Source: an uncultured bacterium (GTDB taxonomy: Bacteria > Verrucomicrobiota > Kiritimatiellia > CAIKKV01 > CAIJXV01). From it: a stretch of DNA of 64,000 nucleotides. The stretch covers positions 46,695-110,694 of the forward strand of contig CAIJXV010000006.1 in NCBI GenBank assembly GCA_903824675.1. The letters run 5' to 3'. Shown here piece by piece: positions 9,721-47,004 of the stretch. A program made the position numbers and the translations under genes. The notes beneath the pieces were generated by a model. It was not told where the DNA came from. It saw only the letters and a program-made list of their open reading frames with translations, and ran no database searches. Each line of letters begins with the position of its first letter. Positions within the stretch are counted from its first letter, which is position 1.

Positions 9721-9745
9721 TAGAGTTTGAACAAGGATACAGACC

Positions 9746-13058: not shown

Positions 13059-13106
13059 CCCAAAACTCCGGCGGCGTGACGCCGATCAGAGGAAAAGGAG
13101 CGACGA

Positions 13107-14003
13107 ATGAAAGGTATTATTCTGGCCGGTGGATCAGGAACCCGGCTCTTTCCCATTACCCGGGCGGTCAGCAAACAATTGTTGCCCATCTATGACAAGC
13201 CGATGATTTATTATCCCTTGTCGGTTCTCATGCTGGCGGGCATTCGCGATATTCTGATCATTTCAACCCCGGAGGATTTGCCGCGGTTCGAAACCCTGTT
13301 GGGCGACGGGGCGGCCCTGGGGTTGCGATTCGAATATGCGGTCCAACCGCGGCCGGAAGGATTAGCCCAGGCGTTCATCATCGGGCGCTCGTTCATCGGG
13401 GACGGCCCGGTGGCCCTGGTGCTGGGGGATAATATCTTTTATGGCCATGGTCTTTCGCAGTTGTTGCGGAGGGCCGGAGACTTGCGCCAGGGCGGCCAGA
13501 TCTTCGGTTATTATGTCAGCGACCCAGAACGGTATGGGGTGGTGGAATTTGATCCGCACGGGACGGCCTTGAGTATCGAAGAAAAACCGACCCAGCCGAA
13601 ATCCAACTATGCGGTGCCGGGCCTGTATTTTTACGATTCCGAAGTCGTATCGATTGCCGCGGCCCTCAAACCGTCGCCCCGGGGAGAATTGGAAATCACC
13701 GATATCAACCGAGTTTATCTGGCGCGGAAAACGTTGCGGGTTGAATTGCTGGGGCGCGGTCTGGCTTGGTTGGATACGGGGACGCATGAGTCGCTCCTGC
13801 AGGCTTCCAACTTTGTGCAGACCATCCAGGAGCGACAGGGATTGAAGGTCGCCTGTATTGAAGAAATTGCCTTCCGTTCGGGTTTTATCGGGGTGGATCA
13901 ATTGAAACAGTTGGCCGAGCCGATGCGCAAGAACGAATATGGTCGCTATTTGATGAAATTAGCGGATCAACCCCATTTACTCGGGGATATTCGAGATTTT
14001 TAA
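13107..14003 (+). CDS. rmlA: Glucose-1-phosphate thymidylyltransferase
   Basis: [18 protein letters not shown] signature; 298 aa. Confidence 0.9.
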
Positions 14004-14017
14004 GGGAGACGTTATAT

Positions 14018-14563
14018 ATGACGGAACTGGCAAAAATCACGGTGGGGCTGGGATCCCTGATCGTGCTCCTCCGGATGCCTTTTGTGCTGGCGCCCAGCCT
14101 GGCCCGGCAAGCCCTTTACGGTTTTCCCCGCAATCGGTGGGCGGCCGGATGTTTGGCGGCCATTGATCTGGGCTGGGTATCCTGGTTGTTGATGGGATTA
14201 CAACTGGGCTGGTTCGAGCCCTATAAGATGGCGCTGTACCTGATGGCCCCGGTGGCCTGGGTTTTACTGATGGTGTTCGTGGATGAATTGCTGGCCGTTC
14301 GGGCCCTCGGCGGACTGTTGATCCTGATTCCTTCGCCGGTGTTGGATGCCGCGCGCTGGCATCTTTCGCCGGGACGGTATGTGATGATTGTCCTGGCTTA
14401 TGTCATGGTCATTGTGGGCGTTGTTCTGGTCACGCAACCACACCGGTTTAAACGCGTGGCCCGGTTTTTTCTTCAGGACCGCGATGACTTGACCCGCTGG
14501 TTTGGCCTGGCCGGGGTAATCGTCGGAGCGCTGTTGGTGGTTTTGGGAATCGGCGTCTTTTAG
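14018..14563 (+). CDS. Small polytopic membrane protein, unknown function
   Basis: 181 aa with 4-5 hydrophobic segments, located in the glycan operon. Confidence 0.5.
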   Translation: MTELAKITVGLGSLIVLLRMPFVLAPSLARQALYGFPRNRWAAGCLAAIDLGWVSWLLMGLQLGWFEPYKMALYLMAPVAWVLLMVFVDELLAVRALGGLLILIPSPVLDAARWHLSPGRYVMIVLAYVMVIVGVVLVTQPHRFKRVARFFLQDRDDLTRWFGLAGVIVGALLVVLGIGVF

Positions 14564-14637
14564 GAGCTGTCCTTACGCGCTCCTCCCTCCCCCCGGCGAG
14601 GGGAAGGGCGGGGGTGAGGGGAGGACCGCCATTTGCT

Positions 14638-15591
14638 ATGGATCGAATTCGTAATCTATTGATCCTGCGTGGCGGTGCTTTAGGCGATTTTATTCTGACG
14701 CTTCCGGTCGTGTCTGCCTTACACCGTCATTTGCCGGCCATCACCATCGATCTGGCGTCCGATCCACGGTTTGCAGAATTAGCCATCGGGTCAGGATGGG
14801 TGCGGAAGGTGCATTCGTTGGATGCCGCGCTCATGGCCCAGATGTATGTTCCCGATGAAGCGCGGAATCCCGCCCTGGCAGATAGTTGGCGCGGATATGA
14901 TGCGGCCCTCTGTTATCTGGAGGATCCCGATCAGACCATCGCACACACCCTGGACGATGCCGGGATCCGACGGCGCGTATTTGTTTCACCCCGAAAGATC
15001 TGTGGGCATGCCATCGATCATTTCATGGGGGGGCTATGCTCGCTTGGCCTGGAAATGATAGCGGACGATTCCCTGGTATTGAATCTGCAGCCCAAAGGGA
15101 CGCGGTCTGCCCTCACGGTCCGGGTATCTCCACAAAGGCCTTTTTTTGTGATTCACCCGGGGAGCGGGAGCGCCCGGAAAAACTGGCCGCTGGATCGGTT
15201 TGTCCGCTTGGCCGAACGAATCCGGAATGAGAGGGCCCTTCTCCCCGTATTTCTTTTGGGCGAAGCTGAAGCCGGATTTGAAAATATTTTAAAGAAAACA
15301 TTGCCCTCCGCCTTATGTCTGACGGAGTTGGGGCTGTCAGACGTGGCTGCGGTTTTGAAACAGGCGCAATTTTATGTCGGAAACGATTCGGGCATCACCC
15401 ATTTGTCGGCCTCCCTGGGCGTGCCCACCTGGGCCTTATTCGGACCGACTGATCCGGAACAATGGGCGCCCCGGGGACGGCAGGTATACGTGGTGCGGTG
15501 TTCCGGTAATGGACTTCATTCGATGGAGGATATGTCCGACGATGCCGTCTGGCGGGCGCTCAAAATTGGAGATGGTTGTCCCCGGTCGTGA
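14638..15591 (+). CDS. GT9-family glycosyltransferase (LPS heptosyltransferase-like)
   Basis: LLILRGGALGDFILTLPV N-terminus, plus the GNDSG and FGPTDP motifs typical of ADP-heptose:LPS heptosyltransferases. ATG at 14638 has GGGAGGA upstream; the track start was GTG at 14614. Confidence 0.65.
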   Translation: MDRIRNLLILRGGALGDFILTLPVVSALHRHLPAITIDLASDPRFAELAIGSGWVRKVHSLDAALMAQMYVPDEARNPALADSWRGYDAALCYLEDPDQTIAHTLDDAGIRRRVFVSPRKICGHAIDHFMGGLCSLGLEMIADDSLVLNLQPKGTRSALTVRVSPQRPFFVIHPGSGSARKNWPLDRFVRLAERIRNERALLPVFLLGEAEAGFENILKKTLPSALCLTELGLSDVAAVLKQAQFYVGNDSGITHLSASLGVPTWALFGPTDPEQWAPRGRQVYVVRCSGNGLHSMEDMSDDAVWRALKIGDGCPRS

Positions 15592-15774: not shown

Positions 15775-16308
15775 TTGCTCTGTGAGTGTTATTTTTATGG
15801 GGGTGCCGTGTCGAATATTTCAATTTCTATTTCCCTGATAGAGGATCTTAGTCAGGCATTGCAGGGAGGGGTGCTTGCATCTGCGCCCGCAATTCGGCAA
15901 GTGGCCTCGGCTGAAAGGCGCTGGCGACCTGATTTTGGCGATATTTTCTGGGGAGTATTGGCACGGTTCAATCGTCATCAGAAACACTACGGGATGGTTG
16001 CGGACGATCATCTGGAATGCCCGCCAGTCCGGGTTCCTGTCCAGGGCGAACGTCCGGCTGTGGTCTTCGCTCCCATCACTTCGCTTCGGAATTCCAATCC
16101 CAAAACGATGGTTTTGCCTCCCGGCACCTTGCCGGCTAAAAAAACCGGTAAAAACACCCATGCCGAGGTCAATTCCTATCTCCTTCTGGCCTTGCGCATG
16201 CTCGTGGGTGTGAAAACCGTTACCTCGCAATTCGAACGGGTACGGCGGTTGCCCGATAATTGCATACAAGATGCGCGCCGTGTTCTCAAACGGGATACCC
16301 TCAAATGA
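15775..16308 (+). CDS. Possible small leading ORF of the island operon (hypothetical)
   Basis: Its TGA stop overlaps the ATG at 16305 of the next gene in an ATGA arrangement, suggesting translational coupling. No recognisable motif and the start is uncertain. It could be non-coding leader sequence. Confidence 0.25.
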   Translation: MLCECYFYGGAVSNISISISLIEDLSQALQGGVLASAPAIRQVASAERRWRPDFGDIFWGVLARFNRHQKHYGMVADDHLECPPVRVPVQGERPAVVFAPITSLRNSNPKTMVLPPGTLPAKKTGKNTHAEVNSYLLLALRMLVGVKTVTSQFERVRRLPDNCIQDARRVLKRDTLK

Positions 16309-17399
16309 CTCAGTCTGACGTCGAAACATCCCGGTCTCTGCCGATACGTGCTTGGTTAGAACGACTTATTGACCACGGCGAGGTTGATGAGGTCTTTTAT
16401 GGAGTTTTGATCGAACAGGTTGGGTATATGACCCGGACAACGGCTAGACATATCCGGACAGAAACCACTGAAGATCTGGTTTCGCCGGAAGATTTGGCCG
16501 GCGATTTCCTGCTTCACTTAAAAGCGGAAAACAAGCGCGAAATTCAAACTTTGTCCGGGCTAAAAAGGGAGTTCTCCAAGTTTTTGACCGACCGGAACGA
16601 TCCCGAATCGAAGGAGCTTTGGGAGATCATCAGCGATGCTTTGCACCAGGGAGGGCGTGAAGGGTGGGCTCGGCGCTTGGATGACTTGCATAGTGAAAAG
16701 AATCATAACCAGGCCGTTTGGACATCGGCTTTGCCGGGATGTGATCAAAAAACGTTGGATTTGGCCCAATTCGAACAGAGGGCAAAAAAGATTCCCTGCT
16801 TTTATCCCGGCCGGACAGCGGGACGAATTCTCCCTCCGTCTGATGCGGTTGAATTGATAAGGCGCCTTTTGAAAGAAGCCCAAGTTCCGATTGTATTTAG
16901 CATTCTCTTTAACGAAGCCCGACGCCATGTAGTATTTGGACTCAGATGGGCGGAGGAACTTGGGGAGGAAAGTGAGGCCGAAGATGGCGAAAAACCTCAA
17001 ATCCAACATGCAGATCGAAGTTGGGAGGTGGTGCAATGGGCCAGGGAAGAATCGGCGGAAAGGGGTGATCGGATTTGGTGTGCCATCCAAGCCCTGAAAA
17101 CTGAAAAAGTGCTTTGCCTTTATATACTTCCCAAGCATTTTCTGGGACAGAAACCGACTTTGTCCGGTATGGGCGATTTCCGCCGGACCAGTGAAAATAG
17201 TCTAGAAATCATGTCGATTCTTGCGCAAGAGCTTAAAGTGGAACGACTTAAATCTGATGCGGCACATCAACGGCCTGATGTTATTGACGAGCAAGACGAT
17301 GATTTTATCAAAGCGTGGACGGTAATGATTCACTTTGTAGCCGAACGGCTTTTGGTGAAATGTTCGGAAAAAGGGTTCAACCCGGCCTTATCATCATAA
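16260..17399 (+). CDS. Hypothetical protein (gene A of island operon); acidic patches, no recognisable domain
   Basis: Long ORF of intermediate GC. An alternative start at 16305 (MTQSDVETS) is coupled to the upstream ORF. Glu/Asp-rich segments EEESEAEDGE and DEQDDD. Confidence 0.6.
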   Translation: MHTRCAPCSQTGYPQMTQSDVETSRSLPIRAWLERLIDHGEVDEVFYGVLIEQVGYMTRTTARHIRTETTEDLVSPEDLAGDFLLHLKAENKREIQTLSGLKREFSKFLTDRNDPESKELWEIISDALHQGGREGWARRLDDLHSEKNHNQAVWTSALPGCDQKTLDLAQFEQRAKKIPCFYPGRTAGRILPPSDAVELIRRLLKEAQVPIVFSILFNEARRHVVFGLRWAEELGEESEAEDGEKPQIQHADRSWEVVQWAREESAERGDRIWCAIQALKTEKVLCLYILPKHFLGQKPTLSGMGDFRRTSENSLEIMSILAQELKVERLKSDAAHQRPDVIDEQDDDFIKAWTVMIHFVAERLLVKCSEKGFNPALSS

Positions 17400-17413
17400 C
17401 GGGGGGATTTGAC

Positions 17414-18343
17414 GTGAAAAGTCAGCCTATTCGGCAATTAGAAGGATTATTGAACAGGGTATTGCCGTCCAAAGGCACTCTGGAATCTGTCGAAAACATA
17501 CAAAACATTGGTCCCGGACAAATGTGGTCGACGAAAGCCATCTTGGATTATCCGATTCATTTTGGGGAGCATGAACTGTTTTGGGTCCTGGTAGTTCAAT
17601 CCCGAGTAATGACGCTGAATAAAGAAAGGGTCCATTTGGTTGCCCCACTTTTATCCGATCCGCATCTGGCGGGACCAGAGGATATCATTTTGCCGAAAGA
17701 AATCATGGGGCATCGGGTGGCATTGGCGTGGGGCAGTCGGATAACGGTATTGGAGAAAAGTCTGGACCGGTGTGAGGGTAAACTCCCTAAAAAGTGGTGC
17801 GATGTTGTGGCGCAACTATCCGCAAATGTGGATTTTCATGTTCTCCGGACCTCCGGCATTGAAATGGGATTTGATTATCTGGACAACCATGATATCCGAT
17901 TTGCCTATCATGAGAACTTGGTGGACCGATTGAGTTACCTGCAATCGCCAGTTATACAGGTTGTCTGGCATGAACAAGCGGATGTGATCCGCATGGACAA
18001 ATGGTTCTCCCGAATAGAGCGGGCGAAATGCCAGTCCTTGGCTGCGGCGACGGGAAGTGCTTTCGAAGAAAGTCTCTATTACCGGGTAGTCGGCAAAAAA
18101 CTGGTCATCAAGGTTGTGCTGGCAAGCGACTGGACCCACGTTCAACTGTTGATCCTGAATGAGAAGGGGGAACTCGCCCCTGAACTGGATGGGTGCCAAG
18201 TGGTCAATACGGAAGGCAAGGCTGTCGGAAAGCCCATCAATGATGCGCAGGTATTAATCGATCTAAACGAAATGCGGTGGGGATGGAGTCTGGTGGACAA
18301 AGATGAGACGAGCCGTAAAATCGAGTATCTGCCAAGCCCATGA
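17414..18343 (+). CDS. Hypothetical protein (gene B of island operon)
   Basis: GTG at 17414 preceded by a GGGGGG SD 7 nt upstream; the track's earlier ATG at 17315 would overlap gene A. The stop TGA overlaps the ATG of gene C (ATGA). Confidence 0.55.
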   Translation: MKSQPIRQLEGLLNRVLPSKGTLESVENIQNIGPGQMWSTKAILDYPIHFGEHELFWVLVVQSRVMTLNKERVHLVAPLLSDPHLAGPEDIILPKEIMGHRVALAWGSRITVLEKSLDRCEGKLPKKWCDVVAQLSANVDFHVLRTSGIEMGFDYLDNHDIRFAYHENLVDRLSYLQSPVIQVVWHEQADVIRMDKWFSRIERAKCQSLAAATGSAFEESLYYRVVGKKLVIKVVLASDWTHVQLLILNEKGELAPELDGCQVVNTEGKAVGKPINDAQVLIDLNEMRWGWSLVDKDETSRKIEYLPSP

Positions 18344-20400
18344 AATTCCCTCCCTTCAGTTATGCCGCTTTACACGAAGAATTACGACTCCACCCTGACT
18401 CCGTATCCGTTTTTACGACAATGGAACTGAAGCACTTGACGCGGATTCCCCCTATCGATCATTCACTTGCCGAGGTGCTAACCGCCGAGGCCATCTATCG
18501 GGAATCAATCAGTCGGTTCTCGGGTGAGTTTATGAGCGAGATCGAGCGTTTGTCGTGCGTGGATGATTATCAACGCATTAAAACAGCCTGGGGTGTAAAA
18601 GGCGAACCCAAATTGGAACATTTCGGGGACTGTCTGCGGGGCCTGGTGTCGGATCCGGTCGCACAGAGAGCCGGAGAACGCCTAGCCACCTTTTGGATGG
18701 CCGACGGGTTGATTCCCGTAGTTTGTAAGCGAGCCGGTGCTTGCGAAGCAATCCCCATCCCGTTTTGTTTACGGTTTGAGACAAGTGTGCACCCGGGAGC
18801 GATTGATTTGGCGGAATGTCCGATTCCGAAATGGGAGCAGGGAGTCCGGGTTTTACGCAAAGAACTGAAGGAACCGGGATTGGTCATTCAAGTATTGCAT
18901 GCGTTGGGACCGCGCGTGAACAACTTGCATGGAAACAGCTTCCAGTTACCGGTTTGTCTGGCGTATGCCCAGAAAAAGGGACGGGTGTCCGGTCGGGAAG
19001 TATTTCACTTTTTGGCCACTGGGGCGGTAAGTGCCGGGTGTATTCGCAAGGTCGACGCACTGGATGAAAAGTTGATCTTGGCGCGGAAACTGGGGCTTGT
19101 CTTTGTGGGTCCGGGGCTGGCGGAGGGCGAGGGCTTGTTCCCGATACAATCTGGGGCTCCATTGATTGCCGTTTGGTCCGCTTTAGGACAAAACGCATTG
19201 AGCGTTGGGCGCGTCAGGATTACGGGGCCCGCGTTAATGGACCTGATCCGGTGTTTGAGGGATGATTTGCATAATGGTGCGGTTTCATTGAAGGACGCAT
19301 CCCGAAAATGGGCTGTTTATACCCGGTATCTGAGCAAACTGGAGGCGGATTCGCCCTACCGCCAGGAAGCTCAACTGGAGCTGGTGCTTTTGAAAGGGGT
19401 AATTCAAACCCATTCAGGAAGTGCGTCCAAAGCTGTTCGCAGCCTGGCAAAGGCGTTTAAAACTGCGATCACATCAGGTGTTGATAATTTAAGCCTGATC
19501 AAGTTGATGGCCCATCAGATTGTCGCCTTAACCGACATCGGTCGATTTGAAGCAGCTGAGGTTTGGGGTTGTCGCGCCCGCCGAGAGTTGGGAAAAAAAT
19601 TCCGAGGGAAGGCGGAGGACCGTATCCGAGCGAAAATGACGCTAAATGGCGTATTGGGAGGGCAGGTGTTTCTGCAAAAAGGCTTACTGAAGTCTGAATA
19701 TGCGTCCCAAAGCCGAGTAATGTTGGTAAAGGCGCTGGAAGATGCTTGTCACCTACGGGAAACCCGAGAAATTCTGCGGGACAGGGTGCAACTCTATTTA
19801 TGGGAAGCTCTTTATAGGCCGGCCGATGCCCTATTGAATTATAGGGGGGTGGAGCAAGATTTATTAAAAGTGACTCCTGACGACCGATGGATGGCGCATC
19901 AATATCTGAAACGGCATCGCTGGCTGGCGGCCTATCGCCTGATTTTAAGCGGACTGAAAACGGAAGGACAACCTGAAGAATGGGATCTTCCGGAACCTAT
20001 GGTGGGGCCAGCCGGTTGGATTCGAGCGACGGCCTTGAAATATAGAGCCACTTGGCGAGCACGGTTGGGCGACTATGTCGGGGCCAAGACCGATTTTGAT
20101 GCGAGTCTTGGGCCTTGGACGCACATGATCGGCAAAAGGCGAATCATCATTTGCCGGGAGCCCTTGATTAGGTTCATTTCAGGCACCATTGCACATGAAG
20201 CGTGTCGATCCTTATCCGACTCAAATGCCAGGGCGAGCCGAGAATACCGAGATATTGCCGACATGCTATTCGAAGGGTGCATTCCAGCCCGACTAAAGGG
20301 ACCATTTTCGGCTCGACAATGGCAGGTAATGAATGCAAAAGAGTGGGTAAATCGGTCGCAGCCTGTTCGGCCGGATTTGCGCTGCCAAATAGTCTATTGA
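18340..20400 (+). CDS. Protein with Lon-like (S16) Ser-Lys protease domain, no ATPase motif, long helical C-terminal region
   Basis: Residues ~198-255, HGNSFQLPVCLAYA...GREVFHFLATGAVSAGCIRKVDALDEKLILARKLGLVFVGP, align with the Lon proteolytic core DGPSAG...[36 protein letters not shown]. Ser200 is at nt 18937-18939 and Lys244 at nt 19069-19071. No Walker A in the protein. 686 aa. Confidence 0.6.
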   Translation: MKFPPFSYAALHEELRLHPDSVSVFTTMELKHLTRIPPIDHSLAEVLTAEAIYRESISRFSGEFMSEIERLSCVDDYQRIKTAWGVKGEPKLEHFGDCLRGLVSDPVAQRAGERLATFWMADGLIPVVCKRAGACEAIPIPFCLRFETSVHPGAIDLAECPIPKWEQGVRVLRKELKEPGLVIQVLHALGPRVNNLHGNSFQLPVCLAYAQKKGRVSGREVFHFLATGAVSAGCIRKVDALDEKLILARKLGLVFVGPGLAEGEGLFPIQSGAPLIAVWSALGQNALSVGRVRITGPALMDLIRCLRDDLHNGAVSLKDASRKWAVYTRYLSKLEADSPYRQEAQLELVLLKGVIQTHSGSASKAVRSLAKAFKTAITSGVDNLSLIKLMAHQIVALTDIGRFEAAEVWGCRARRELGKKFRGKAEDRIRAKMTLNGVLGGQVFLQKGLLKSEYASQSRVMLVKALEDACHLRETREILRDRVQLYLWEALYRPADALLNYRGVEQDLLKVTPDDRWMAHQYLKRHRWLAAYRLILSGLKTEGQPEEWDLPEPMVGPAGWIRATALKYRATWRARLGDYVGAKTDFDASLGPWTHMIGKRRIIICREPLIRFISGTIAHEACRSLSDSNARASREYRDIADMLFEGCIPARLKGPFSARQWQVMNAKEWVNRSQPVRPDLRCQIVY

Positions 20401-20409
20401 GGTTCAGCG

Positions 20410-21255
20410 ATGAAAGATCAGTCCGATCCCAAGGTGCTGGTGCCCGAAAGTTTTCGATTAGCATCAGACTACATGTATGGAATTGAGATTGCGTTGCGAG
20501 AATTGATCATCGAAGTAATGGATGCAGATCCAAGCCATGGTCGACTATGGTATCTAAAGTTGGAACCTGCACGTGACGTAGTGAAAAAGATGCGAGAAGC
20601 GAGAACCGATCAACTTCGCAACCGGCATATCCAATTCATCGCCTATCACCCCATCTATTACACGGATTTTCCCGATTTGCGAAAATTGTTTGAAAGTAGA
20701 CTTGTCTGGCCTCGATTTGAGCGATATTTATGGGGAAAAGAAGCATTTCTTGGCGACTTGGAAAAACTTGAACCAATTCGGAATTCGATAGCCCACCATC
20801 GTCCGGTTCCACATTCAACGGTCGAAATTATTGCTCCTGTATGGAATATGCTAAAAAATCGACTGGGTGAAGAGAAGATAAAACTCTGGGTACAGAGGCC
20901 GACGGTTGTTGAAAATATTAGGGAGAAATTAAACCACATCAACCAAGAAATTCACAAAACATGGGAAGTGATCTCCCAGAAAGAGTGCCAACTGCCGGAT
21001 ATATTAGAAGTCCGAGACTGTGTAGCTGCTTGGTGGTTCACACGGGAGTACTTGCTGCCAGATAAGGAAGAAATACCGGAATTTGATAGTATTTTAAAAT
21101 ATTTCAATAAATTGTCGGAATATAATCAAAACATTCCCTTCCATGAACGAGGATACGTCATCAAGATTCGCAAATGGGTCGGCGAAAACAAAATTGACGA
21201 ACTTGTTACTAATGCCGAATCCGTAATGGTGGAGGCCCTTAATGGCTGGGGGTGA
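20410..21255 (+). CDS. HEPN-domain protein, Abi_2 (AbiD/AbiF)- or Swt1-like
   Basis: LEPIRNSIAHHRPV contains the Rx4HH HEPN RNase motif (R124, H129, H130; nt 20779-20799). 281 aa, similar in size to Abi_2 proteins. AGG-rich SD upstream. Confidence 0.6.
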   Translation: MKDQSDPKVLVPESFRLASDYMYGIEIALRELIIEVMDADPSHGRLWYLKLEPARDVVKKMREARTDQLRNRHIQFIAYHPIYYTDFPDLRKLFESRLVWPRFERYLWGKEAFLGDLEKLEPIRNSIAHHRPVPHSTVEIIAPVWNMLKNRLGEEKIKLWVQRPTVVENIREKLNHINQEIHKTWEVISQKECQLPDILEVRDCVAAWWFTREYLLPDKEEIPEFDSILKYFNKLSEYNQNIPFHERGYVIKIRKWVGENKIDELVTNAESVMVEALNGWG

Positions 21256-21258
21256 AAG

Positions 21259-24048
21259 ATGAATATTTCGGACTTTGAAAAAAACAATAATACAATAGAA
21301 AATGATTTAACAAGGGCAATTAAAGAAACCCCTAACCCCTTTAATCCACATTCGCCAGTTGAAGATCCCGAATTACTAGTCGGCAGGCAAGCGTTATTGC
21401 TGGAAATTGACATGCAGTTGAAAGAGTGTCATGAAACAAGACGTTTTCGACATGTCATTGTTTCAGGGGAGCGCGGATCAGGTAAAACCAGTCTTATGCA
21501 GGTGATTGCGCAAAAGTATTATAAGAAACAGTGTTTATGCCAAATTAAAATTGAATCCGACACGAGCCTGCGCGATCCGCTTTTGTTTCGGCAGATATTT
21601 CGCAAATTAATTGAAAGTCTTTTTAGTCAGACGTCGGAACGTTCGCGCGATATATCATCAATATTTCGCGGAAAGACTGATAAAGTATTTCAAAGAACCA
21701 TTAGTGATCTCGAAAAATATAGTCCCGGAATAAAGGACCAGGTTTTTGCCTTTCCAGAAATATACTTCGAAACCAAGGACATACAGGCAGATGCAATGTT
21801 TGAGATTAAAAAAGCCCTTAAAGCGGATATTGCCATTATCGCTGATAACTTGAATGTCCCACTTTTTATTCTGGTAGACGCTTTTGGAGGGGCCGAAACA
21901 AATGCTGAATTTATTTGCATTCTAGTGTCCCTATTTGAAAAGGTCAATAACGTTTGCCTTTTGACTATTGCTTCTGCTGAAACGATTCAGGTGTTGCACA
22001 ATAAATCAGAAACGCTCATTCGAACCGCAAAGAAATATGACATGCCTCCCTTGACGGCTGATGATATTCGCGCCTTATTTGTAAAAACTTTACTTCAAAA
22101 AGATTTATTTAGAGAATCCATTCAAAAAGCTTTGGCGACGACGAAATGGGATGTCGCCAGTTGTGTGGAATTTTCGCCGTTTTGGGGTGAGTTCAAGTAT
22201 CAAATAAAACCCGAATTAATCGCGCAATGTGCGCAGGGCAACCCATATCTTACAATGATGATGCTTTATGTTGCCTTCAAGAAAGCGAAGGCGACAGATA
22301 ACAAGGTAATTGCTTTTGATGCTGAGGTCTTAAAGGATGTTTTTGTTGAATTGCAATACGATCAGAAATATCAACCTTATCAAAAAACCTTTACGTGGAT
22401 CAAATCATTGGGTTCTCGTAAGCGACTTCTTTTAAGTTTTTTGCTGCAAATTAGGACGCCCATTAAACTCGAAGATCTTTTTGCATTTGAACTTTTGATT
22501 CACCATGAGGATTTTGTCGTCAGGAACGAACTTCTTACGGCATACAGAGATTTCTGCCGACAAGGTGCTATACGCGAGAATACGGACGGCACATTTAGTG
22601 TGATGCTGAATAGCATTGAATGCGCCTATTTGACCCTATTTCAAGCTAACGACTTGAATGATTTTCGATTTTATAAAAACTTGACTGATTTTGTTTCCTC
22701 GGAATTACTTGGCCAACTACTTCGCCCTAAGTCTTCGTCGCTGATAAGTCGAAGAACCCAGTTTGAGGAATTCATCGAATTGCTAGAACGTGAAGCCCAA
22801 TTTCACCCTGACTTTATCCCCCTCATTAGTAAAGTTAGATATAAAGATGCTCTAGATGTGCTGTCTATGGATATAGATCAATCTGGGAATTCCAATATTC
22901 CTTTGCACACTGCTTCTGGCCGTTGTGCAATCTTGGCGTTCCCTAGGTGGACAGAATCAGTAAACCATCCCAAATCAAATTATAAAGATATACCCTTTGC
23001 TCAGGCTCTCTCTCAGATTCGAAATTCGGCAGACTGCAAAAACTTAATGCGCAGTAATCTTTGGGGTTTAAAATGGTGCATCGAGTATGAACGCCTGGAA
23101 GATGAAGCTGGGGTTCGTTCGGAAATCCCGTGGCTTCTCCCTTTTTTGTATTTATCATTGCAGATGCCTCGCATTCCAGTTCTGACAATTAAAGCGAGCT
23201 TTTCAGAGCGTCGCATTGAAATCGTCGCGAGTTGGATGGCGGCTTTACAAGGTGAAGAATCAATAGAGGATTCCATTCAGCCTCGCCTTGAGCAGCTTAA
23301 GGCTAATGCACTGTTAGCCAGTGTGGAGTTGTCTTGCTCATGGGAATATTATGAACCATTGTATCTACATGATCTACCGGATTCATTTTATGAGATGTCA
23401 CTCTATCACCCAGAGTATGAGAAGTACCACAATAATTCAAAGCGGGAAGGCCCTTTTGTCAAGGAACAACTATACCATTTCGGGGCACTCCTGGCTGATT
23501 CGTGGGTTCATATCTGCGCACAACGAAAGTTTCGTGAGATAGAGATCTTCTTGACGCACTACTCAAGACTTATAATTCTTCCGGACGTCCAAAGATATCT
23601 TAGCTTTCAAGAATATGATAAGTCTTTGCTCACCTGTCAGATCGAGTTCTCATTAATTGTTGCGGGTCGGTATGACTTGGCGACTGAACTTATTTCTGTC
23701 TTGTTGCCACATTTCAAGGATCCCGTGTTTTTGGCTCTAACACATTATGGGCTAGCATTAATTGCATTGTGCCAAAGCAAATTCGATGTCGTAGTTTCGG
23801 AATTAGCTGAAATCCGCTGTCTTATTTCTTTGCACGCTAATGATTTTAAGCGATTCACTGAGGCCGTTTCAGCTCATGACTTCGCCAAATATTCGTCCGC
23901 CAAAGAAGGTTGTTTCAGCACATATTTCTTTATTCCTCTTCCTAAGGTCGAAAACGGCGAGATCGTTTTTGCTATTTCTAATGCCGCGGACTTCACGGCC
24001 GTTTGTGATTCGGTCGATACGGCAGTTAGAAGGAAGCCAGCTCGATAA
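21259..24048 (+). CDS. STAND / AAA_16-type P-loop NTPase with ~650 aa helical C-terminal (sensor-like) region
   Basis: ELLVGRQALLLEIDMQL...HVIVSGERGSGKTSLMQ is an AAA_16-style N-terminus with Walker A at aa 70-77. The Walker B-like motif is VPLFILVDAFGG. 929 aa, conspicuously AT-rich coding sequence. Confidence 0.7.
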   Translation: MNISDFEKNNNTIENDLTRAIKETPNPFNPHSPVEDPELLVGRQALLLEIDMQLKECHETRRFRHVIVSGERGSGKTSLMQVIAQKYYKKQCLCQIKIESDTSLRDPLLFRQIFRKLIESLFSQTSERSRDISSIFRGKTDKVFQRTISDLEKYSPGIKDQVFAFPEIYFETKDIQADAMFEIKKALKADIAIIADNLNVPLFILVDAFGGAETNAEFICILVSLFEKVNNVCLLTIASAETIQVLHNKSETLIRTAKKYDMPPLTADDIRALFVKTLLQKDLFRESIQKALATTKWDVASCVEFSPFWGEFKYQIKPELIAQCAQGNPYLTMMMLYVAFKKAKATDNKVIAFDAEVLKDVFVELQYDQKYQPYQKTFTWIKSLGSRKRLLLSFLLQIRTPIKLEDLFAFELLIHHEDFVVRNELLTAYRDFCRQGAIRENTDGTFSVMLNSIECAYLTLFQANDLNDFRFYKNLTDFVSSELLGQLLRPKSSSLISRRTQFEEFIELLEREAQFHPDFIPLISKVRYKDALDVLSMDIDQSGNSNIPLHTASGRCAILAFPRWTESVNHPKSNYKDIPFAQALSQIRNSADCKNLMRSNLWGLKWCIEYERLEDEAGVRSEIPWLLPFLYLSLQMPRIPVLTIKASFSERRIEIVASWMAALQGEESIEDSIQPRLEQLKANALLASVELSCSWEYYEPLYLHDLPDSFYEMSLYHPEYEKYHNNSKREGPFVKEQLYHFGALLADSWVHICAQRKFREIEIFLTHYSRLIILPDVQRYLSFQEYDKSLLTCQIEFSLIVAGRYDLATELISVLLPHFKDPVFLALTHYGLALIALCQSKFDVVVSELAEIRCLISLHANDFKRFTEAVSAHDFAKYSSAKEGCFSTYFFIPLPKVENGEIVFAISNAADFTAVCDSVDTAVRRKPAR

Positions 24049-24197
24049 GGGGCTCCGTATTGGCCTCGCTGGCCCTTTGATTGTTCGGGATATGATTCTC
24101 CTTCTCCGCCAACTTTCTTGAATGGTGCTAATGTGATATACACAATTAGCATACATGGAGACGGCGACAGTAAACCCATTGTGCCACACTGATGGAA

Positions 24198-26336
24198 TTA
24201 CGAATAATTGAATGGCAATAAACGGGCGATGTCGCTGGCCGACGAAATATCCGAACCTTTGAGGATATCTGAAAACTGGTCTATCCCGCCCCATGCTTTC
24301 AGGTACGATGCAAATGGCGTGGACTGTGCGATGAGGCTTTCTGTCCAAGACAGGCATTCCTGGAAGTGTTTTGCATGCGATTGATTGTCTCCGCGAATCT
24401 TGTTGATGACGGTGATCAATCCCAATTGGGATAAACCAATGGTTTGCACCGTAAAGTGTAACTTCTTGGATATGCTGACACCTTGAGCCAAGATCTGAGT
24501 AGCAGATTCATATTGTTGGGCTTGTAAAAACAAATACCCGATCCACTTGCAGAGATGTTCGCATGGATGATCTTCGAATATGCGGGTCTTCCACGTATCC
24601 CAAATGGCTGCCGTCATGTTTTTGTCAATAGGGATGACGTCAGCGGCCACTGCGTCGCAATGGGCCGAAGCGATTCGAAGATAATTGATCGCATTGAATG
24701 GGGAGAGATTCGGGGTTGTCATGATTTCAGGTAGTCTCGAAACTAAATCTGCCGGAGTTGCAACAGGATTATTCCCTGAATGCCTGTTCATTTCAGCGCA
24801 GGCGCGGTTGAGATCGTCCGATTGCCAGGCCAGGGTTGCCAGATAGTTTGCCGACATTGAATAATATGAAATACCAGAGGGGAAATGTTTGATGCTTTTT
24901 TCGAAATATGCGCGAGCCATGTCTCCCCAGGCGGGATCCGTCCGCGCTAGAAAAGCGCAGGCTTGGCCCAGTGATCCTTGCATTTGGCCCAGAAGTTCAT
25001 CAGGTTCATCCGCTGGCACTTCGGCTTCGCGGCGGTCGACATCATCGCTGAACGTGGTTAGCACCTCTTCGAATCGGTAATCATTGAAAAGATAATTGAG
25101 ATTTCGGTTTCGGATTTCCAGTAAACGTTCTTTTCGCGTGTTGTGAGTTCCGGGTAGTAAATTCATCTGTTGTTGAAGCAATGTTGTCAGGCGGGTTTCA
25201 ATGTCTTTTTGCGGATTAACGTTGCCTTGGTGATTATGGCAGGCGGCAAGATCACTCAGACCATCTGCCAGATAATTTGCCCAAACACGTTGATTTTCGA
25301 TGGAACCCTTCGCCCTCAGGTTGGCCTCGGCGATGTCGGTCAATTGATGAAGGAGTTTCTTTGCACCATCCAGATTTCCGGGTTCACGAGTGCGGCTAGC
25401 GATGAGAAAGCGGGTATAGGCGAGTAATGCGGATGTTTCGCGCATGAGTATCTGACTGTCGTCTTCGCGTTTTAGAGCCTGGATCAAGCGGGAATAATCG
25501 GGATGCCCTTCTGTAGTCGGTAAATAACGCCGCAAATAATCGGCGGTCGTTGCGTACTGTTTGTTCTCCAAAAGGCGCGCGACTTCGTGATCGTAATGCC
25601 GGCGATAGTCGCCAAACATGAATTCATCGGGATTAGTTCGCTCGACTATTGTCCCGTCTGGTGTTTTTTTGCCGCCGCGCAGAAGACAGCATACGAAGTC
25701 CGCTGCGATGAGGCCTGGATTCCGATCCCCAATACCCCACCGTAATAATAATCGATTTTCGGCATTCAATCTTCTGGTGAATGAGATGGCTGGCGAGTCG
25801 CCAGAAAGGATCTGGTCTTTGATATAGTCCAATAGGCGAGGCATGTAGTCGGGATAGTTTGAGTTGATGGTTTCTGCGATGGTTCGTTGTGCAACCATTA
25901 TTTCCACAGAATCAGCATTTGGGCATCGCGTGAAGAGTGTTTCCAGAGCCTTTCGCGTAGCGGCAACCAAATTCAAGACATAAGTGGCCTGCGGAGAAGT
26001 CTCAAATCGCTTGCCGGTATTTCTTGATGCGAAAAAAAAAGCACTTGAACCGCAGATGCCTGTAAAAACGGCATTTGTGAAGGCTTCGAGATCCCGCCTT
26101 GACACTGGGCCGGCGACTCGGAGGTGGCCTTCTAACAACTTGCCGCAATGATAATGATCGGGATAGATGAATTTAATGCGGGAATTTGAGTTAAAAGCTG
26201 AAAGTTGGTCGACATGCAATGCCTTCCACGCCTGATCATCAAGGGTGCTACAGATGCCCCCTACAAGAGAAGATGCCTTTCGAGTGATCCCTTCATCAAA
26301 GGAGCCGCTCTCGTCTATGAAAATGAAATATTTCAC
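24198..26336 (-). CDS. DUF3800 N-terminal domain protein with long TPR-like helical C-terminus
   Basis: The N-terminus MKYFIFIDESGSFD matches the characteristic DUF3800 start (M.Y..IDESG). 712 aa, AT-richer than flanking genes, convergent with the STAND gene. Confidence 0.55.
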   Translation of the reverse strand: MKYFIFIDESGSFDEGITRKASSLVGGICSTLDDQAWKALHVDQLSAFNSNSRIKFIYPDHYHCGKLLEGHLRVAGPVSRRDLEAFTNAVFTGICGSSAFFFASRNTGKRFETSPQATYVLNLVAATRKALETLFTRCPNADSVEIMVAQRTIAETINSNYPDYMPRLLDYIKDQILSGDSPAISFTRRLNAENRLLLRWGIGDRNPGLIAADFVCCLLRGGKKTPDGTIVERTNPDEFMFGDYRRHYDHEVARLLENKQYATTADYLRRYLPTTEGHPDYSRLIQALKREDDSQILMRETSALLAYTRFLIASRTREPGNLDGAKKLLHQLTDIAEANLRAKGSIENQRVWANYLADGLSDLAACHNHQGNVNPQKDIETRLTTLLQQQMNLLPGTHNTRKERLLEIRNRNLNYLFNDYRFEEVLTTFSDDVDRREAEVPADEPDELLGQMQGSLGQACAFLARTDPAWGDMARAYFEKSIKHFPSGISYYSMSANYLATLAWQSDDLNRACAEMNRHSGNNPVATPADLVSRLPEIMTTPNLSPFNAINYLRIASAHCDAVAADVIPIDKNMTAAIWDTWKTRIFEDHPCEHLCKWIGYLFLQAQQYESATQILAQGVSISKKLHFTVQTIGLSQLGLITVINKIRGDNQSHAKHFQECLSWTESLIAQSTPFASYLKAWGGIDQFSDILKGSDISSASDIARLLPFNYS

Positions 26337-26609
26337 GGATTAAACACCTTATATCTTTGTTAGTTACTGATATTGCGGAATTCCCCTTCCCAGCGCAAGT
26401 TCGTTCTTTGAACCCTCTATACAACGGGACGAATTTCCAAGGAGGATTATTTGGGCAATTTCATCGGAAAAGTTGTTAGACGTCGGCTTCCAGTAATTTG
26501 CAACGTCTGCGATTGAATTCTAGCTACAAATGAAGATTTACCTGATGAAAACGATTTTAGGCCTTGGTTTCTGGTTCGGGTTGGTGGCGTTGTTGGTTTG
26601 GGAGGAACT

Positions 26610-28862: not shown

Positions 28863-28876
28863 CGGGATGATGAGCG

Positions 28877-43344: not shown

Positions 43345-43557
43345 TGCGGCCTCCGGATTGTGAGTGTGGATCATTACCTCTGGTTTATTCAATACAACTC
43401 TCTAGTTATAGAAAAGATGGGGGGGCGGGTCAACGTTTTTTCAGTTGTTTCCGTGGAAGGAGACAGAACAAACAAGATCTTCATTGCCCATTTCGGATAA
43501 TATTATGATTGATGGTAATGGGGGAAAAGATTATTATGAGAACGAAAGGTTTTCTTT

Positions 43558-44349: not shown

Positions 44350-44356
44350 GGTTTCC

Positions 44357-46805: not shown

Positions 46806-47004
46806 CTTGAAAATAATCGAACCGACCGTATCGACCGTAAGGGTGCTTATTCATTTCAGAGAATTCTCCTCGCCTCCCTTTGGAAAGCAGTTTTTTGCTT
46901 GAGGCTGTCAATTAATCTGAGTGCGGGCTTGCAATCATTTCTGGAAAATGGCAGATAGGACGCCGCCGGCGAATGGTGCGTCAAAACGACAAAGGTGAGT
47001 CGCC

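What the first reader, a model, noticed from the sequence alone, without database searches (positions are those of the whole stretch)
15775..24048. Candidate undescribed multigene defence operon: unknowns + ATPase-less Lon-like protease + Abi_2-like HEPN + STAND NTPase
Five or six co-directional genes are joined by ATGA overlaps or gaps of 15 nt or less: 16305/16308, 18340/18343, 20400-20410 and 21255-21259. This implies one translationally coupled transcript. It encodes two or three proteins with no recognisable domain, a 686-aa protein whose only recognisable domain is a Lon-type Ser-Lys peptidase core without an AAA+ module, a 281-aa HEPN protein with an Rx4HH motif, and a 929-aa P-loop NTPase with an AAA_16/STAND N-terminus and a long helical C-terminus. 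HEPN RNases and STAND NTPases are established effectors and sensors of abortive-infection systems such as Avs and AbiD/F. Lon-like proteases occur in BREX (BrxL). I do not recognise this specific gene combination as any named system. One plausible logic is a STAND sensor controlling proteolytic activation of a HEPN RNase. The operon sits in an AT-richer block beside a DUF3800 gene and a helicase, which looks like a defence island.
Basis: partly seen in the sequence, partly recalled or inferred. Interest (0 to 1): 0.85.

Follow-up and report, generated by a model that had tools for sequence, protein, structure and literature searches.

The report
Two defence modules, one new protease cassette
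The six tightly packed genes are real, but they are two independent modules: a widespread RNase-plus-NTPase pair, and a rare unnamed four-gene cassette built around a Lon-type protease and a likely cleavable partner, which resembles a CRISPR-linked protease signalling system but has no CRISPR link.

Summary
Six co-directional genes (15808-24048) are joined by ATGA overlaps or gaps of 3-14 nt, in a low-GC block. The single-system interpretation does not hold.

D (Swt1-family HEPN, RNxxAH invariant) and E (AAA_16/STAND-like NTPase) form an autonomous pair. In 15 of 16 genomes from about eight phyla, D is followed directly by E, and A, B, B2, C and F are never present. Their GC is 0.41-0.43, against 0.49-0.54 for A-C.

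A-B-B2-C is a separate, rare cassette with no Pfam, NCBIfam or PADLOC assignment at a curated cut-off. It recurs in about ten metagenomic lineages without D-E.
- C is a Lon-fold protease (Ser200 in 139/140 aligned members, Lys244 in 123/142) followed by TPR-like repeats.
- B2 models weakly as a MazF/CcdB-like barrel, a linker with an Ala-Ala in all 11 lineages checked, and a beta-sandwich.
- B2 is fused to C in some lineages.
- In others the protease is fused to a STAND NTPase, with A-B-B2 still upstream.

Most likely the sensor triggers cleavage of B2, as CalpL cleaves CalpT. This is inferred. The sigma-factor analogy for B is untested for the window's subtype.

Verdict: partly supported, a new variant of a known kind.

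The parts
15808..16308 (+). Gene A (166 aa from GTG 15808; the ORF opens at TTG 15775). First gene of the protease cassette, subtype-1 form. Fold unknown. It has a PemK/MazF-like 'FGxI..G ... APITS ... L.pGtLP' pattern, seen by eye only.
   Evidence: Homologues sit in the same position in L010 (29% id, E 2e-13), L039 (HMM 6e-10) and L050 (1.3e-23). No Pfam, NCBIfam, PADLOC or PDB hit. hhalign to MazF sequences recalled from memory gave only E 0.03.
16305..17399 (+). Gene B (364 aa). All-helical protein of unknown function, 'long' subtype. It is a candidate cargo or regulator that B2 holds.
   Evidence: ATGA overlap with A. Homologues are in L010 (E 2e-28), L039 and L050 (35% id, E 2e-35). No Pfam, NCBIfam or PADLOC hit at E<=0.1 and no Pfam hit at E<=10; two chance-level PDB matches (E 2 and 3.8) with the five-sequence family profile and one (cohesin Scc3, E 0.49) with the long-B profile. 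The AF2 model is unusable (pLDDT 37).
17414..18343 (+). Gene B2 (309 aa). Proposed partner and substrate of the protease. It has a disordered N-terminus, a MazF/CcdB-like barrel (about aa 55-120), a helical linker and a C-terminal beta-sandwich (aa 220-309).
18041..18046 (+). Codons for Ala210-Ala211 of B2, within the motif S-L-A-A-A. This is the proposed cleavage site in the linker just before the C-terminal beta-sandwich.
   Evidence: The Ala-Ala pair is present in all 11 lineages checked: SLAAA, PLAAA, AKAAA, ARAAK, QLAAD, VLAAE, AIAAS (twice), ALAAS, ALAAA and GLAAK. CalpT is cut by CalpL inside 202-LAAA, which exposes an LAA degron (paper read). Cleavage here is inferred.
18340..20400 (+). 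Gene C (686 aa). It has an N-terminal domain, a Lon-fold Ser-Lys peptidase core (about aa 185-265), TPR-like helical repeats (about aa 300-686) and a conserved C-terminal Tyr. It has no AAA+ module and no SAVED domain.
   Evidence: 242 cluster representatives match at E<=1e-3 among 1.84 billion. The family profile aligns to Lon catalytic domains (5e7s, 4ypm, 2x36 and others) at E 1e-3 and to TPR proteins. There are weak PADLOC hits to SAVED-Lon and CRISPR-Lon at aa 194-258. 107 of 119 family members end in Tyr.
18937..19071 (+). Segment from the codon of the catalytic Ser200 (18937-18939) to the codon of Lys244 (19069-19071) in C.
   Evidence: S200 is present in 139 of 140 aligned relatives and K244 in 123 of 142. 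Both are invariant in the 50-sequence alignment A2 and align with the Lon dyad.
20410..21255 (+). Gene D (281 aa). Swt1-family HEPN RNase (aa 1-140) plus a conserved C-terminal domain that is probably an adaptor to E. First gene of the autonomous HEPN-NTPase pair.
   Evidence: 70 non-self homologues; 63 of them carry a precomputed PF18731. PADLOC PDC-M34B at 3e-10. R124, N125, A128 and H129 are invariant in 29 sequences; the motif lies at nt 20779-20796. GC is 0.429.
21259..24048 (+). Gene E (929 aa). AAA_16/BrxC_BrxD/NACHT-like P-loop NTPase with a long helical C-terminal half. It is the invariable partner of D.
   Evidence: Pfam: AAA_16 at 3.4e-7, BrxC_BrxD at 23.8 bits (cut-off 22.2), NACHT at 23.2 bits (below cut-off). 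Homologues of 740-840 aa follow D directly in L004-L006 and in 15 of 16 genome loci. Walker A G70-S78 (nt 21466-21492) and Walker B D207 are conserved. The window protein has Ala208 where 12 homologues have Glu. GC is 0.411.
24198..26336 (-). Gene F (712 aa, convergent). It is possibly linked to the protease cassette or to the neighbouring TOTE-type system. Its N-terminus reads 'FIFIDESG' and a relative has TPR-like repeats. Its assignment is open.
   Evidence: A full-length homologue (28.5% id, E 5e-60) lies directly after C in L008. F-like genes are absent from the other C loci. No Pfam or PADLOC hit. The L008 copy shows TPR_12 at 5.7e-4.

Best explanation
The six genes are probably co-transcribed here, but they are two independent conflict modules placed head to tail in a defence island.

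Module 1 (A, B, B2, C; 15808-20400) is a rare, unnamed cassette. C is a Lon-fold Ser-Lys protease whose C-terminal half is TPR-like repeats. B2 is its dedicated partner. B2 has a MazF/CcdB-like barrel, a linker with an Ala-Ala pair present in every lineage checked, and a C-terminal beta-sandwich.

The proposed mechanism has three inferred steps. First, the repeat region senses an infection or stress cue; in relatives a STAND NTPase plus repeats fills this role. Second, the protease becomes active and cuts B2 in the Ala-Ala linker. Third, the cut destabilises or releases the MazF-like half, which frees or activates what it held. That cargo would be A and/or B, acting as a regulator or a toxin. 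This parallels CalpL cutting CalpT to free CalpS.

Module 2 (D, E; 20410-24048) is an autonomous pair. E is an AAA_16/STAND-like NTPase that would act as the sensor or switch. D is a Swt1-family HEPN RNase that would act as the effector, giving abortive infection by RNA cleavage. This is inferred from known HEPN-STAND fusions and from Avs logic.

Shown here: gene order, conservation, modularity, catalytic-motif conservation and the fusions. Inferred: every biochemical step.
For: Modularity:
- D homologues are followed directly by E homologues in L004, L005 and L006, in unrelated contexts.
- The same holds in 15 of 16 genome loci from Chloroflexota, Acidobacteriota, Cyanobacteria, Deltaproteobacteria, Calditrichota, Rhizobiales, Eremiobacterota and Archaeoglobaceae. 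None of these loci has a hit to A, B, B2, C or F.
- A-B-B2-C, or size-matched equivalents, recur in L008, L009, L010-12/37, L039/43/44, L048/49, L050 and L051. L013/14 has B plus a B2-C fusion. None of these has D-E.
- GC is 0.41-0.43 for D-E, against 0.49-0.535 for A-C.

Protease:
- S200 and K244 are conserved.
- The family profile aligns to Lon catalytic domains at E~1e-3.
- There are weak PADLOC hits to SAVED-Lon and CRISPR-Lon.

Partner:
- B2-C fusions exist.
- Ala-Ala is present in all 11 lineages checked.
- CalpT has a MazF domain plus a small C-terminal domain and is cut in LAAA.

Sensor logic:
- The same N-terminal protease module is fused to NACHT, nSTAND1 or AAA_16 with WD40, Sel1 or TPR repeats.
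- Those fused forms keep A-B-B2 upstream.

Defence context:
- Window: TOTE / PDC-M16.
- L010: SLFN_AlbA_2 plus NACHT.
- L013: HEPN-MNT.
- L009: an ankyrin protein resembling PDC-M72A.
- L005: a type I restriction-modification system next to D-E.

D and E motifs. HEPN-STAND-TPR fusions are described in Anantharaman 2013.
Against: - No biochemical step was tested.
- C does not match CalpL in the PDB sequence search. It has no SAVED domain.
- The window's B shows no sigma-factor signal, and its model failed.
- A and B of the two cassette subtypes are not detectably homologous to each other. Only B2 and C are therefore demonstrably universal.
- The 9-nt C/D junction and the lack of any detectable terminator leave open a functional coupling of the two modules in this genome.
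- Window E lacks the Walker B Glu that its homologues have, so it may be impaired.
- The cassette abuts sugar and LPS genes here and in L049. This allows a non-defence reading.
Confidence: 0.6

Rival explanations
1. All six genes form one integrated system. A-C would be a sensing and proteolytic front end. D-E would be the interchangeable effector cargo placed in the variable slot after C.
For: The C/D (9 nt) and D/E (3 nt) junctions are tight and on the same strand, and no terminator stands out above chance. The gene after C differs between loci and is often defence-like: F-like in L008, an ankyrin protein resembling PDC-M72A in L009, SLFN_AlbA_2 in L001 and a zinc-ribbon protein in L013. In relatives the protease domain is fused to STAND NTPases.
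Against: D-E occurs without A-C in at least 18 loci. A-C occurs without D-E in about 10 lineages. No locus other than the window has both. D-E carries its own NTPase sensor and has a distinct GC. L010-12 has no conserved gene after C.
Confidence: 0.15
2. Module 1 is a housekeeping regulated-proteolysis or transcription-control cassette, for example for envelope or polysaccharide genes. On this reading it is not an immune system.
For: In the window it lies directly downstream of dTDP-sugar, UDP-glucose dehydrogenase and heptosyltransferase genes. In L049 it lies directly upstream of GNAT-oxidoreductase and DegT aminotransferase genes. The short-B subtype gives its only PDB hit to the sigma-4 domain of SigF (E 0.31).
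Against: Most other contexts are defence islands or mobile elements: L008, L009, L010, L013 and L050 with IS66. The protease module is fused to NLR-like STAND proteins. The cassette is very rare and patchy, with singleton clusters, and it lies in a low-GC block.
Confidence: 0.15
3. Module 1 is a protease-gated toxin system. The MazF-like barrel of B2, and perhaps of A, would be a latent RNase toxin that C unleashes by removing an inhibitory C-terminal domain. No transcription factor would be involved.
Against: The matches are weak and no MazF catalytic residues were evaluated. In the closest characterised analogue, CalpT, the MazF-like domain is a non-toxic anti-sigma scaffold. This model leaves B and A without a role.
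Confidence: 0.2

Closest known systems
CalpL-CalpT-CalpS (type III CRISPR SAVED-Lon protease, MazF-like anti-sigma factor, ECF-like sigma factor)
   Different: C has no SAVED or cA4 sensor; it carries TPR-like repeats instead, and relatives carry a STAND NTPase. There are no CRISPR or cas genes and no repeat array in the window. No ECF sigma factor was detected for the window's B. There is no sequence-level homology to CalpL, CalpT or DUF2080. The cassette has four genes rather than three.
Craspase accessory module (TPR-CHAT protease Csx29, Csx30, Csx31, CASP-sigma) of type III-E CRISPR
   Same: Both have a TPR-bearing protease and a dedicated cleavable partner that holds a regulator, in a four-gene layout. 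This comparison rests on the introduction of the paper read.
   Different: The protease there has a caspase-like CHAT fold, not a Lon fold. It is activated by a crRNA-guided complex. No homology was tested or found here.
Avs / bacterial NLR-like STAND proteins and HEPN-STAND-TPR fusions (Anantharaman 2013; Gao 2022, from my own knowledge)
   Same: For D-E, a P-loop STAND-like NTPase with a helical-repeat C-terminus is coupled to an active Swt1-type HEPN effector. For relatives of C, the protease sits as the N-terminal effector of a NACHT or nSTAND protein with WD40, Sel1 or TPR repeats.
   Different: In the window the HEPN and the NTPase are separate genes. E scores below the NACHT and AAA_16 cut-offs and hits no Avs model at E<=0.1. 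C has repeats but no NTPase.
PADLOC candidate PDC-M34
   Same: D and its homologues match PDC-M34B, at 3e-10 for D and down to 1.6e-23 for homologues.
   Different: E and its homologues do not match any PDC-M34A model. Only the HEPN component is shared. PDC-M34 is itself an untested candidate, and I found no paper on it.
BrxL (BREX Lon-like protease) and canonical LonA/LonB
   Same: They share the S16-type Ser-Lys catalytic core.
   Different: C has no AAA+/ATPase module, no BrxL hit in PADLOC and no Lon_C hit in Pfam. There are no BREX genes nearby.

Membership tests
Lon / peptidase S16 catalytic domain | Ser-Lys dyad in the G-x-S ... K-x-x-x-A context, alignable to Lon protease domains | tested here: met
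   S200 is present in 139/140 and K244 in 123/142 aligned relatives. The family profile aligns to Lon catalytic domains across both residues at E 1.2e-3.
Lon / peptidase S16 catalytic domain | Match to the curated Pfam or NCBIfam Lon models at their cut-offs | tested here: not met
   No Pfam or NCBIfam hit for C at E<=0.1. There are only weak PADLOC Lon-type hits at E 2e-3 to 4e-2.
Canonical Lon / BrxL | AAA+ ATPase module fused to the protease | tested here: not met
   C has no P-loop or AAA hit in Pfam, NCBIfam or PADLOC. The C-terminal half matches TPR proteins.
CalpL-CalpT-CalpS | SAVED (cyclic-oligoadenylate sensor) domain on the protease | tested here: not met
   There is no SAVED match. 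The PADLOC SAVED-Lon hits cover only aa 194-258, the protease core.
CalpL-CalpT-CalpS | Partner with a MazF-like domain plus a small C-terminal domain (DUF2080), cleaved in an Ala-rich linker | tested here: inconclusive
CalpL-CalpT-CalpS | ECF-like sigma factor as third component | tested here: inconclusive
   The window's B has no sigma hit in Pfam, NCBIfam or PDB, and its model is unusable. The short-B subtype in other loci gives its only PDB hit to the SigF sigma-4 domain at a non-significant E of 0.31. The two B subtypes are not detectably homologous.
CalpL-CalpT-CalpS | Association with a type III CRISPR-Cas locus | tested here: not met
   None of the nine genes scanned against PADLOC (15775-30802) reaches a curated-quality cas assignment; C's only hits are weak (E 2e-3 to 4e-2) matches of its protease core (aa 194-258) to the CRISPR-Lon, CARF-Lon and SAVED-Lon models, and E has a marginal AAA-region hit (E 0.043) to RtcR_PspF1--CARF_AAA_HTH. 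There is no tandem repeat array in the 64-kb window. The neighbours listed in related loci include no Cas families.
HEPN, Swt1 family (PF18731) | Conserved R-x4-H (RNxxAH) catalytic motif | tested here: met
   R124, N125, A128 and H129 are invariant in 29 sequences.
HEPN, Swt1 family (PF18731) | Profile match to the family | tested here: met
   63 of the 70 non-self homologues carry a precomputed PF18731. D matches PADLOC PDC-M34B at 3e-10. D itself falls below the reporting threshold for PF18731 in hmmscan and gives only Abi_2 at 17.9 bits, under the 25.6 cut-off.
AbiD/AbiF (Abi_2) | Pfam Abi_2 at the gathering score | tested here: not met
   17.9 bits against a cut-off of 25.6, covering only aa 18-66.
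STAND NTPase / Avs | P-loop NTPase with conserved Walker A and B | tested here: met
   Walker A G70, R72, G75, K76, T77, S78 and Walker B D207 are conserved in 13 sequences. The window protein has Ala in place of the following Glu.
STAND NTPase / Avs | Match to a STAND-specific model (NACHT, NB-ARC, nSTAND, Avs) at its cut-off | tested here: not met
   NACHT 23.2 (cut-off 26.7), AAA_16 31.3 (cut-off 32.6) and nSTAND3 20.8 (cut-off 27.2). Only BrxC_BrxD passes, at 23.8 against 22.2. No PADLOC Avs hit.
STAND NTPase / Avs | C-terminal repeat sensor (TPR, WD40 or LRR) | tested here: inconclusive
   The homologue in L004 has weak or faint TPR_MalT and TPR_12 hits on record. Window E has a long helical C-terminus but no repeat hit. 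No structure was predicted.
PADLOC PDC-M34 | Both components (A and B) present | tested here: not met
   The B component matches D. No PDC-M34A hit was found for E or for three E homologues.
DUF3800 (the label given to neighbour F) | Pfam PF12686 match | tested here: not met
   No hit at E<=10 for F or for its L008 homologue.

The most novel reading that the evidence does not exclude
Module 1 would represent an undescribed class of stand-alone, CRISPR-independent protease signalling immune systems. A TPR sensor, or in sister lineages an NLR-like STAND sensor, would switch on a Lon-fold protease. That protease would cut a dedicated MazF-fold 'CalpT-like' partner at an Ala-Ala linker and so release a regulator or toxin (A and/or B). 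This would be a bacterial NLR-to-protease-to-substrate cascade with its own private substrates.
Probability: 0.3. Interest if true: 0.8.

Novelty: new variant of a known kind. Interest (0 to 1): 0.62.

Why it matters
If the model holds, the CalpL-CalpT type of proteolytic signalling is not confined to type III CRISPR. It would be a portable output module that can be wired to TPR or NLR-like STAND sensors. That gives a tractable system of four genes with clear point mutants: S200A and K244A in C, and the Ala-Ala linker in B2. It could be used to ask how bacterial NLR-like sensors drive a protease cascade and what such a cascade releases.

The analysis also shows how tight gene packing in defence islands can fuse unrelated modules into apparent operons. 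Finally, it documents a widespread but untested two-gene module of a Swt1-HEPN RNase and a STAND-like NTPase.

Tried and rejected
- **Word-indexed homologue searches.** These found almost nothing for C (2 hits) or for the B family (2 hits). Only the exhaustive profile search recovered the C family.
- **The search for related loci with broad C alignments.** This failed because no stretch was conserved enough. With A4 it found no genome-collection member. The family was not found in the species-representative genomes with those patterns, nor in IMG/VR. D was also not found in IMG/VR.
- **Structure of B.** pLDDT was 37, which is unusable, so I ran no fold search on it.
- **Foldseek of the B2 model against PDB.** Nothing at E<=0.001. 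The afdb50 library was unavailable.
- **PDB profile searches.** The B2 family and A subtype 1 gave no hits; the five-sequence B-family profile and the long-B profile gave only chance-level matches (E 0.49-3.8).
- **hhalign of A against B2.** No relation.
- **hhalign of the B family against an E. coli RpoE sequence recalled from memory.** Not significant.
- **hhalign of A and B2 against MazF, EndoA and Kid sequences recalled from memory.** Only pairwise E of 0.02-0.03. I treat this as a hint only.
- **PDC-M34 as the identity of D-E.** Rejected, because the A component does not match.
- **BrxL/BREX and AbiD/F.** Rejected.
- **Flanking direct repeats around D-E as an insertion signature.** None found.
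- **Promoter and terminator scans.** Not above shuffled expectation.
- **Literature.** Searches for TOTE, PDC-M16, PDC-M34 and Lon/MazF/TPR cassettes returned nothing that describes module 1.

Full report
**1. Observation**

ORF listing and direct reading confirm six co-directional genes on the + strand.

| Gene | Coordinates | Length | Note |
|---|---|---|---|
| A | 15808-16308 | 166 aa | GTG start after GGGGG; the ORF opens at TTG 15775 |
| B | 16305-17399 | 364 aa | |
| B2 | 17414-18343 | 309 aa | GTG start after GGGGGG |
| C | 18340-20400 | 686 aa | |
| D | 20410-21255 | 281 aa | |
| E | 21259-24048 | 929 aa | |

The junctions are as follows:
- A/B: ATGA overlap.
- B/B2: 14 nt.
- B2/C: ATGA overlap.
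- C/D: 9 nt.
- D/E: 3 nt.

The window is a stretch of a 185-kb JGI metagenome contig, and its own gene calls agree, apart from later starts for B2 and C. The block is AT-richer than its surroundings: GC is 0.41-0.535, against 0.55-0.57 for the flanks. Consensus promoter and terminator scans are at chance level. Co-transcription is plausible but was not shown.

**2. What profile libraries say**

- A, B, B2 and C have no Pfam or NCBIfam hit.
- C has weak PADLOC hits at aa 194-258 to the SAVED-Lon, CARF-Lon and CRISPR-Lon models (E 2e-3 to 4e-2).
- D gives a sub-threshold Abi_2 hit and PADLOC PDC-M34B at 3e-10.
- E gives AAA_16, NACHT and nSTAND3 below their cut-offs, and BrxC_BrxD just above its cut-off.
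- Downstream, G (26598-28862) and H (28877-30802) are a TOTE / PDC-M16 system (E 9e-197 and 6.6e-103).
- The convergent gene F (24198-26336) has no hit.

**3. D-E is an autonomous two-gene module**

D has 70 non-self homologues in the 5.8-billion-protein search; 63 of them are annotated PF18731 (HEPN_Swt1).

Three look-ups gave the same picture: a HEPN gene of 266-318 aa is followed immediately by an AAA_16 NTPase of 747-779 aa. The contexts were unrelated: next to a type I restriction-modification system, inside a purine operon, and among housekeeping genes. E aligns with the L004 NTPase over 420 residues (E 5e-16).

A scan of species-representative genomes with the D alignment returned 22 loci.
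- In 15 of the 16 loci with a full-length D homologue, an E homologue of 620-840 aa follows directly. In the sixteenth, the contig ends.
- None of these loci has a hit to A, B, B2, C or F.
- The hosts span Chloroflexota, Acidobacteriota, Cyanobacteria, Deltaproteobacteria, Calditrichota, Rhizobiales, Eremiobacterota and Archaeoglobaceae.

The motifs are conserved.
- R124, N125, A128 and H129 of D are invariant in 29 sequences. So is a set of C-terminal residues (W208, W209, F210, D211, R247, G248), which suggests a conserved adaptor domain.
- In the E family, Walker A (G70...K76-T77-S78) and Walker B D207 are conserved. The window's E has Ala208 where all 12 homologues have Glu.

Anantharaman et al. 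2013 already list Swt1-type HEPN domains fused to STAND ATPase-TPR-S1 proteins. The pair is thus a split version of a described architecture.

It is not PDC-M34, because no PDC-M34A model matches E or its homologues. I found no experimental study of it.

**4. A-B-B2-C is a separate conserved cassette**

The word-indexed search found only one relative of C. An exhaustive profile search of 1.84 billion cluster representatives found 242 at E<=1e-3 and 61 at E<=1e-30. Most are 640-700 aa. All ten clusters I inspected are tiny metagenomic clusters.

Neighbourhoods of C relatives, with BLAST and HMM comparison, show the same layout again and again.

| Locus | Genes upstream of and including C (aa) |
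|---|---|
| L008 | 188 - 480 - 397 - 680 |
| L009 | 162 - 288 - 324 - 687 |
| L010, L011, L012, L037 | 157 - 375 - 322 - 670 |
| L039, L043, L044 | 152 - 399 - 318 - about 670 |
| L048, L049 | 153 - 285 - 355 - 694 |

Most of these genes are joined by 4-nt overlaps.

The window's A, B, B2 and C match the L010 proteins at E 2e-13, 2e-28, 1e-20 and 9e-67. They match the L050 proteins at E 5e-9, 2e-35, 4e-26 and 3e-13. No locus other than the window contains D-E.

Two subtypes exist.
- Subtype 1: window, L010, L039 and L050.
- Subtype 2: L009, L013, L048 and L051, with L008 nearest to it.
- Their first two genes are conserved within a subtype but are not detectably homologous between subtypes (hhalign probability <=0.2).
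- B2 and C are homologous throughout.

**5. Anatomy of C**

- In a 50-sequence alignment, S200 and K244 are invariant. Across 149 sequences, S200 is present in 139/140 and K244 in 123/142 aligned positions.
- The family profile aligns to the catalytic domains of solved Lon proteases at E about 1e-3. GgSfaLPvllA aligns with GPSAGITMATA, and TGai...V.gl.aK..lA aligns with TGEV...IGGVKEKLLAA.
- The C-terminal half aligns to TPR proteins.
- There is no AAA+ module and no SAVED domain.
- 107 of 119 members end in Tyr.

**6. Anatomy of B2 and its link to C**

B2 is fused N-terminally to C in proteins of 783-1010 aa: P0077 (L013/14), P0105, P0112 and P0108. This is a Rosetta-stone argument for a direct physical or functional link.

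An AlphaFold2 model of the window's B2, built on a 9-sequence alignment, has mean pLDDT 64.
- aa 1-53 are disordered.
- aa 56-120 form a beta-rich domain (pLDDT 58-81).
- A helical linker follows.
- aa 220-309 form a well-predicted beta-sandwich.

An Ala-Ala pair lies about ten residues before the C-terminal sandwich, usually preceded by Leu. It is present in all eleven lineages examined, including the fusion proteins and the STAND-linked loci.

According to Smalakyte et al. (bioRxiv 10.1101/2024.05.08.593097, read):
- CalpL cuts it between A204 and A205 of an LAAA motif.
- The cut exposes an LAA degron, and degradation then frees the sigma factor CalpS.

B2 has the same size (about 34 kDa), the same domain order and the same linker motif.

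**7. The protease module is also an NLR effector**

Longer relatives of 816-1905 aa share only the first 300 or so residues of C. They continue into NACHT, AAA_16, NPHP3_N or nSTAND1 NTPase domains, with WD40, Sel1 or winged-helix parts.

The two that I looked up keep the same three genes upstream.
- L050: 172 - 372 - 312 - 1261 aa, subtype 1.
- L051: 157 - 279 - 371 - 1544 aa, subtype 2.
- HMM E-values range from 1e-23 to 1e-50.

The unit 'A-B-B2 plus Lon-like protease' is thus constant, while the sensor attached to the protease varies between TPR alone and STAND plus repeats. This is the strongest argument that the cassette is a sensor-protease-substrate conflict system.

Its neighbours point the same way:
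- TOTE in the window.
- SLFN_AlbA_2 plus NACHT in L010.
- HEPN-MNT and an AAA protein in L013.
- DUF2357 and PDDEXK upstream, and an ankyrin protein resembling PDC-M72A plus IS110 downstream, in L009.
- IS66 in L050.
- SLFN_AlbA_2 in L001.

**8. What remains open**

- The window's B is all-helical. Its model failed (pLDDT 37), and it has no sigma-factor signal.
- The short-B subtype gives a single PDB hit, the sigma-4 domain of SigF, aligned end to end. At E 0.31 this is not significant.
- A shows a PemK-like 'APITS' pattern by eye. It gets no profile support and only a marginal pairwise hhalign score against MazF sequences I recalled from memory.
- F has a full-length homologue directly after C in L008 (E 5e-60) but in no other C locus. 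In both cases a large TPR and AAA_16 or TOTE-type gene is adjacent. F's allegiance is therefore unresolved.
- The cassette abuts sugar-nucleotide and LPS genes in the window, and sugar-modifying genes in L049. This keeps a non-defence regulatory role possible.

**9. Mechanism**

For module 1, I propose three steps, all inferred. A cue is sensed by the TPR half of C. The Lon-fold protease becomes active, perhaps by oligomerisation as in CalpL. It then cuts B2 at the Ala-Ala linker, which releases or activates A and/or B. I give this about 0.45.

For module 2, I propose that the NTPase E acts as a ligand-gated switch for the HEPN RNase D, leading to RNA cleavage and growth arrest. I give this about 0.6 by analogy. 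The caveat is that the window's E lacks the Walker B glutamate.

That the six genes are two modules rather than one system I hold at about 0.85.

**10. Novelty and score**

- D-E is a new member of a known kind: the HEPN-STAND association has been described, but the pair is unnamed and untested.
- Module 1 has no name in Pfam, NCBIfam or PADLOC, and I found no paper on it.
- Mechanistically it looks like a CRISPR-independent variant of the CalpL-CalpT type of protease signalling with TPR or STAND sensors.

I therefore rate it a new variant of a known kind, with a 0.3 chance that it is a distinct class worth high interest.

Noticed in passing
window 26598-30802 (+): This is a complete two-gene TOTE / PADLOC PDC-M16 system. 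The first gene is an SF1 RecD-like helicase with a TBP-TOTE domain (PDC-M16A, E 9e-197). The second is a TPR/DUF7017 protein with S1CSD-TOTE-2 (PDC-M16B, E 6.6e-103).
   Followed up: partly
window 24198-26336 (-): F is a 712-aa protein with no Pfam or PADLOC hit. Its N-terminus 'MKYFIFIDESG' looks DUF3800-like by eye only. A full-length homologue (28.5% id) follows the C gene directly in L008 (10178-12241), where a gene of at least 1295 aa follows; Pfam detects only an AAA_16 domain near its C-terminus, and TPR-like and cold-shock/S1-like parts were read by eye only. It is unclear whether F belongs to the protease cassette or to TOTE-like systems.
   Followed up: partly
window 21880-21882 (E codon 208): The window's E has Ala directly after the Walker B Asp207 (LVDAF). 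All 12 aligned homologues have Glu there (DEC). E is also 90-190 aa longer and only 20-27% identical to them. It may bind nucleotide without hydrolysing it, or it may be decaying.
   Followed up: no
window 20395-20397 (last codon of C) and the C family: 107 of 119 full-length C-family proteins end in a Tyr preceded by a PQxxFxY-like tail. A conserved extreme C-terminus suggests a docking or autoinhibitory role.
   Followed up: no
window 10621-15591 (+): The island lies directly downstream of a sugar-nucleotide and LPS cluster. The cluster includes dTDP-glucose 4,6-dehydratase-like, UDP-glucose 6-dehydrogenase, glucose-1-phosphate thymidylyltransferase, a DUF2065-like membrane protein and a GT9 heptosyltransferase. 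In L049 the same cassette type precedes GNAT-oxidoreductase and DegT aminotransferase genes (8281-11992).
   Followed up: partly
P0124 (1154 aa): In this C-family member the protease-TPR part (aa 494-1076) is fused behind a UvrD/REP helicase rather than behind B2.
   Followed up: no
L045 960-2078 (-): Here a B2 homologue lies on the opposite strand, just after a partial C gene. This is an exception to the usual B2-then-C order. The contig is only 2.1 kb, so the context is unknown.
   Followed up: no
window 50539-50613 (+) and 43000-47000: This is the single tRNA-Glu(TTC) gene, and the only Rfam hit in the window. A second, milder GC dip (0.49-0.54) lies at about 43-47 kb and was not examined.
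   Followed up: no
window 15820-16329 (-) and 16560-17138 (-): Long antisense ORFs of 169 and 192 aa overlap A and B. They have no support from homologous loci and are probably spurious.
   Followed up: no
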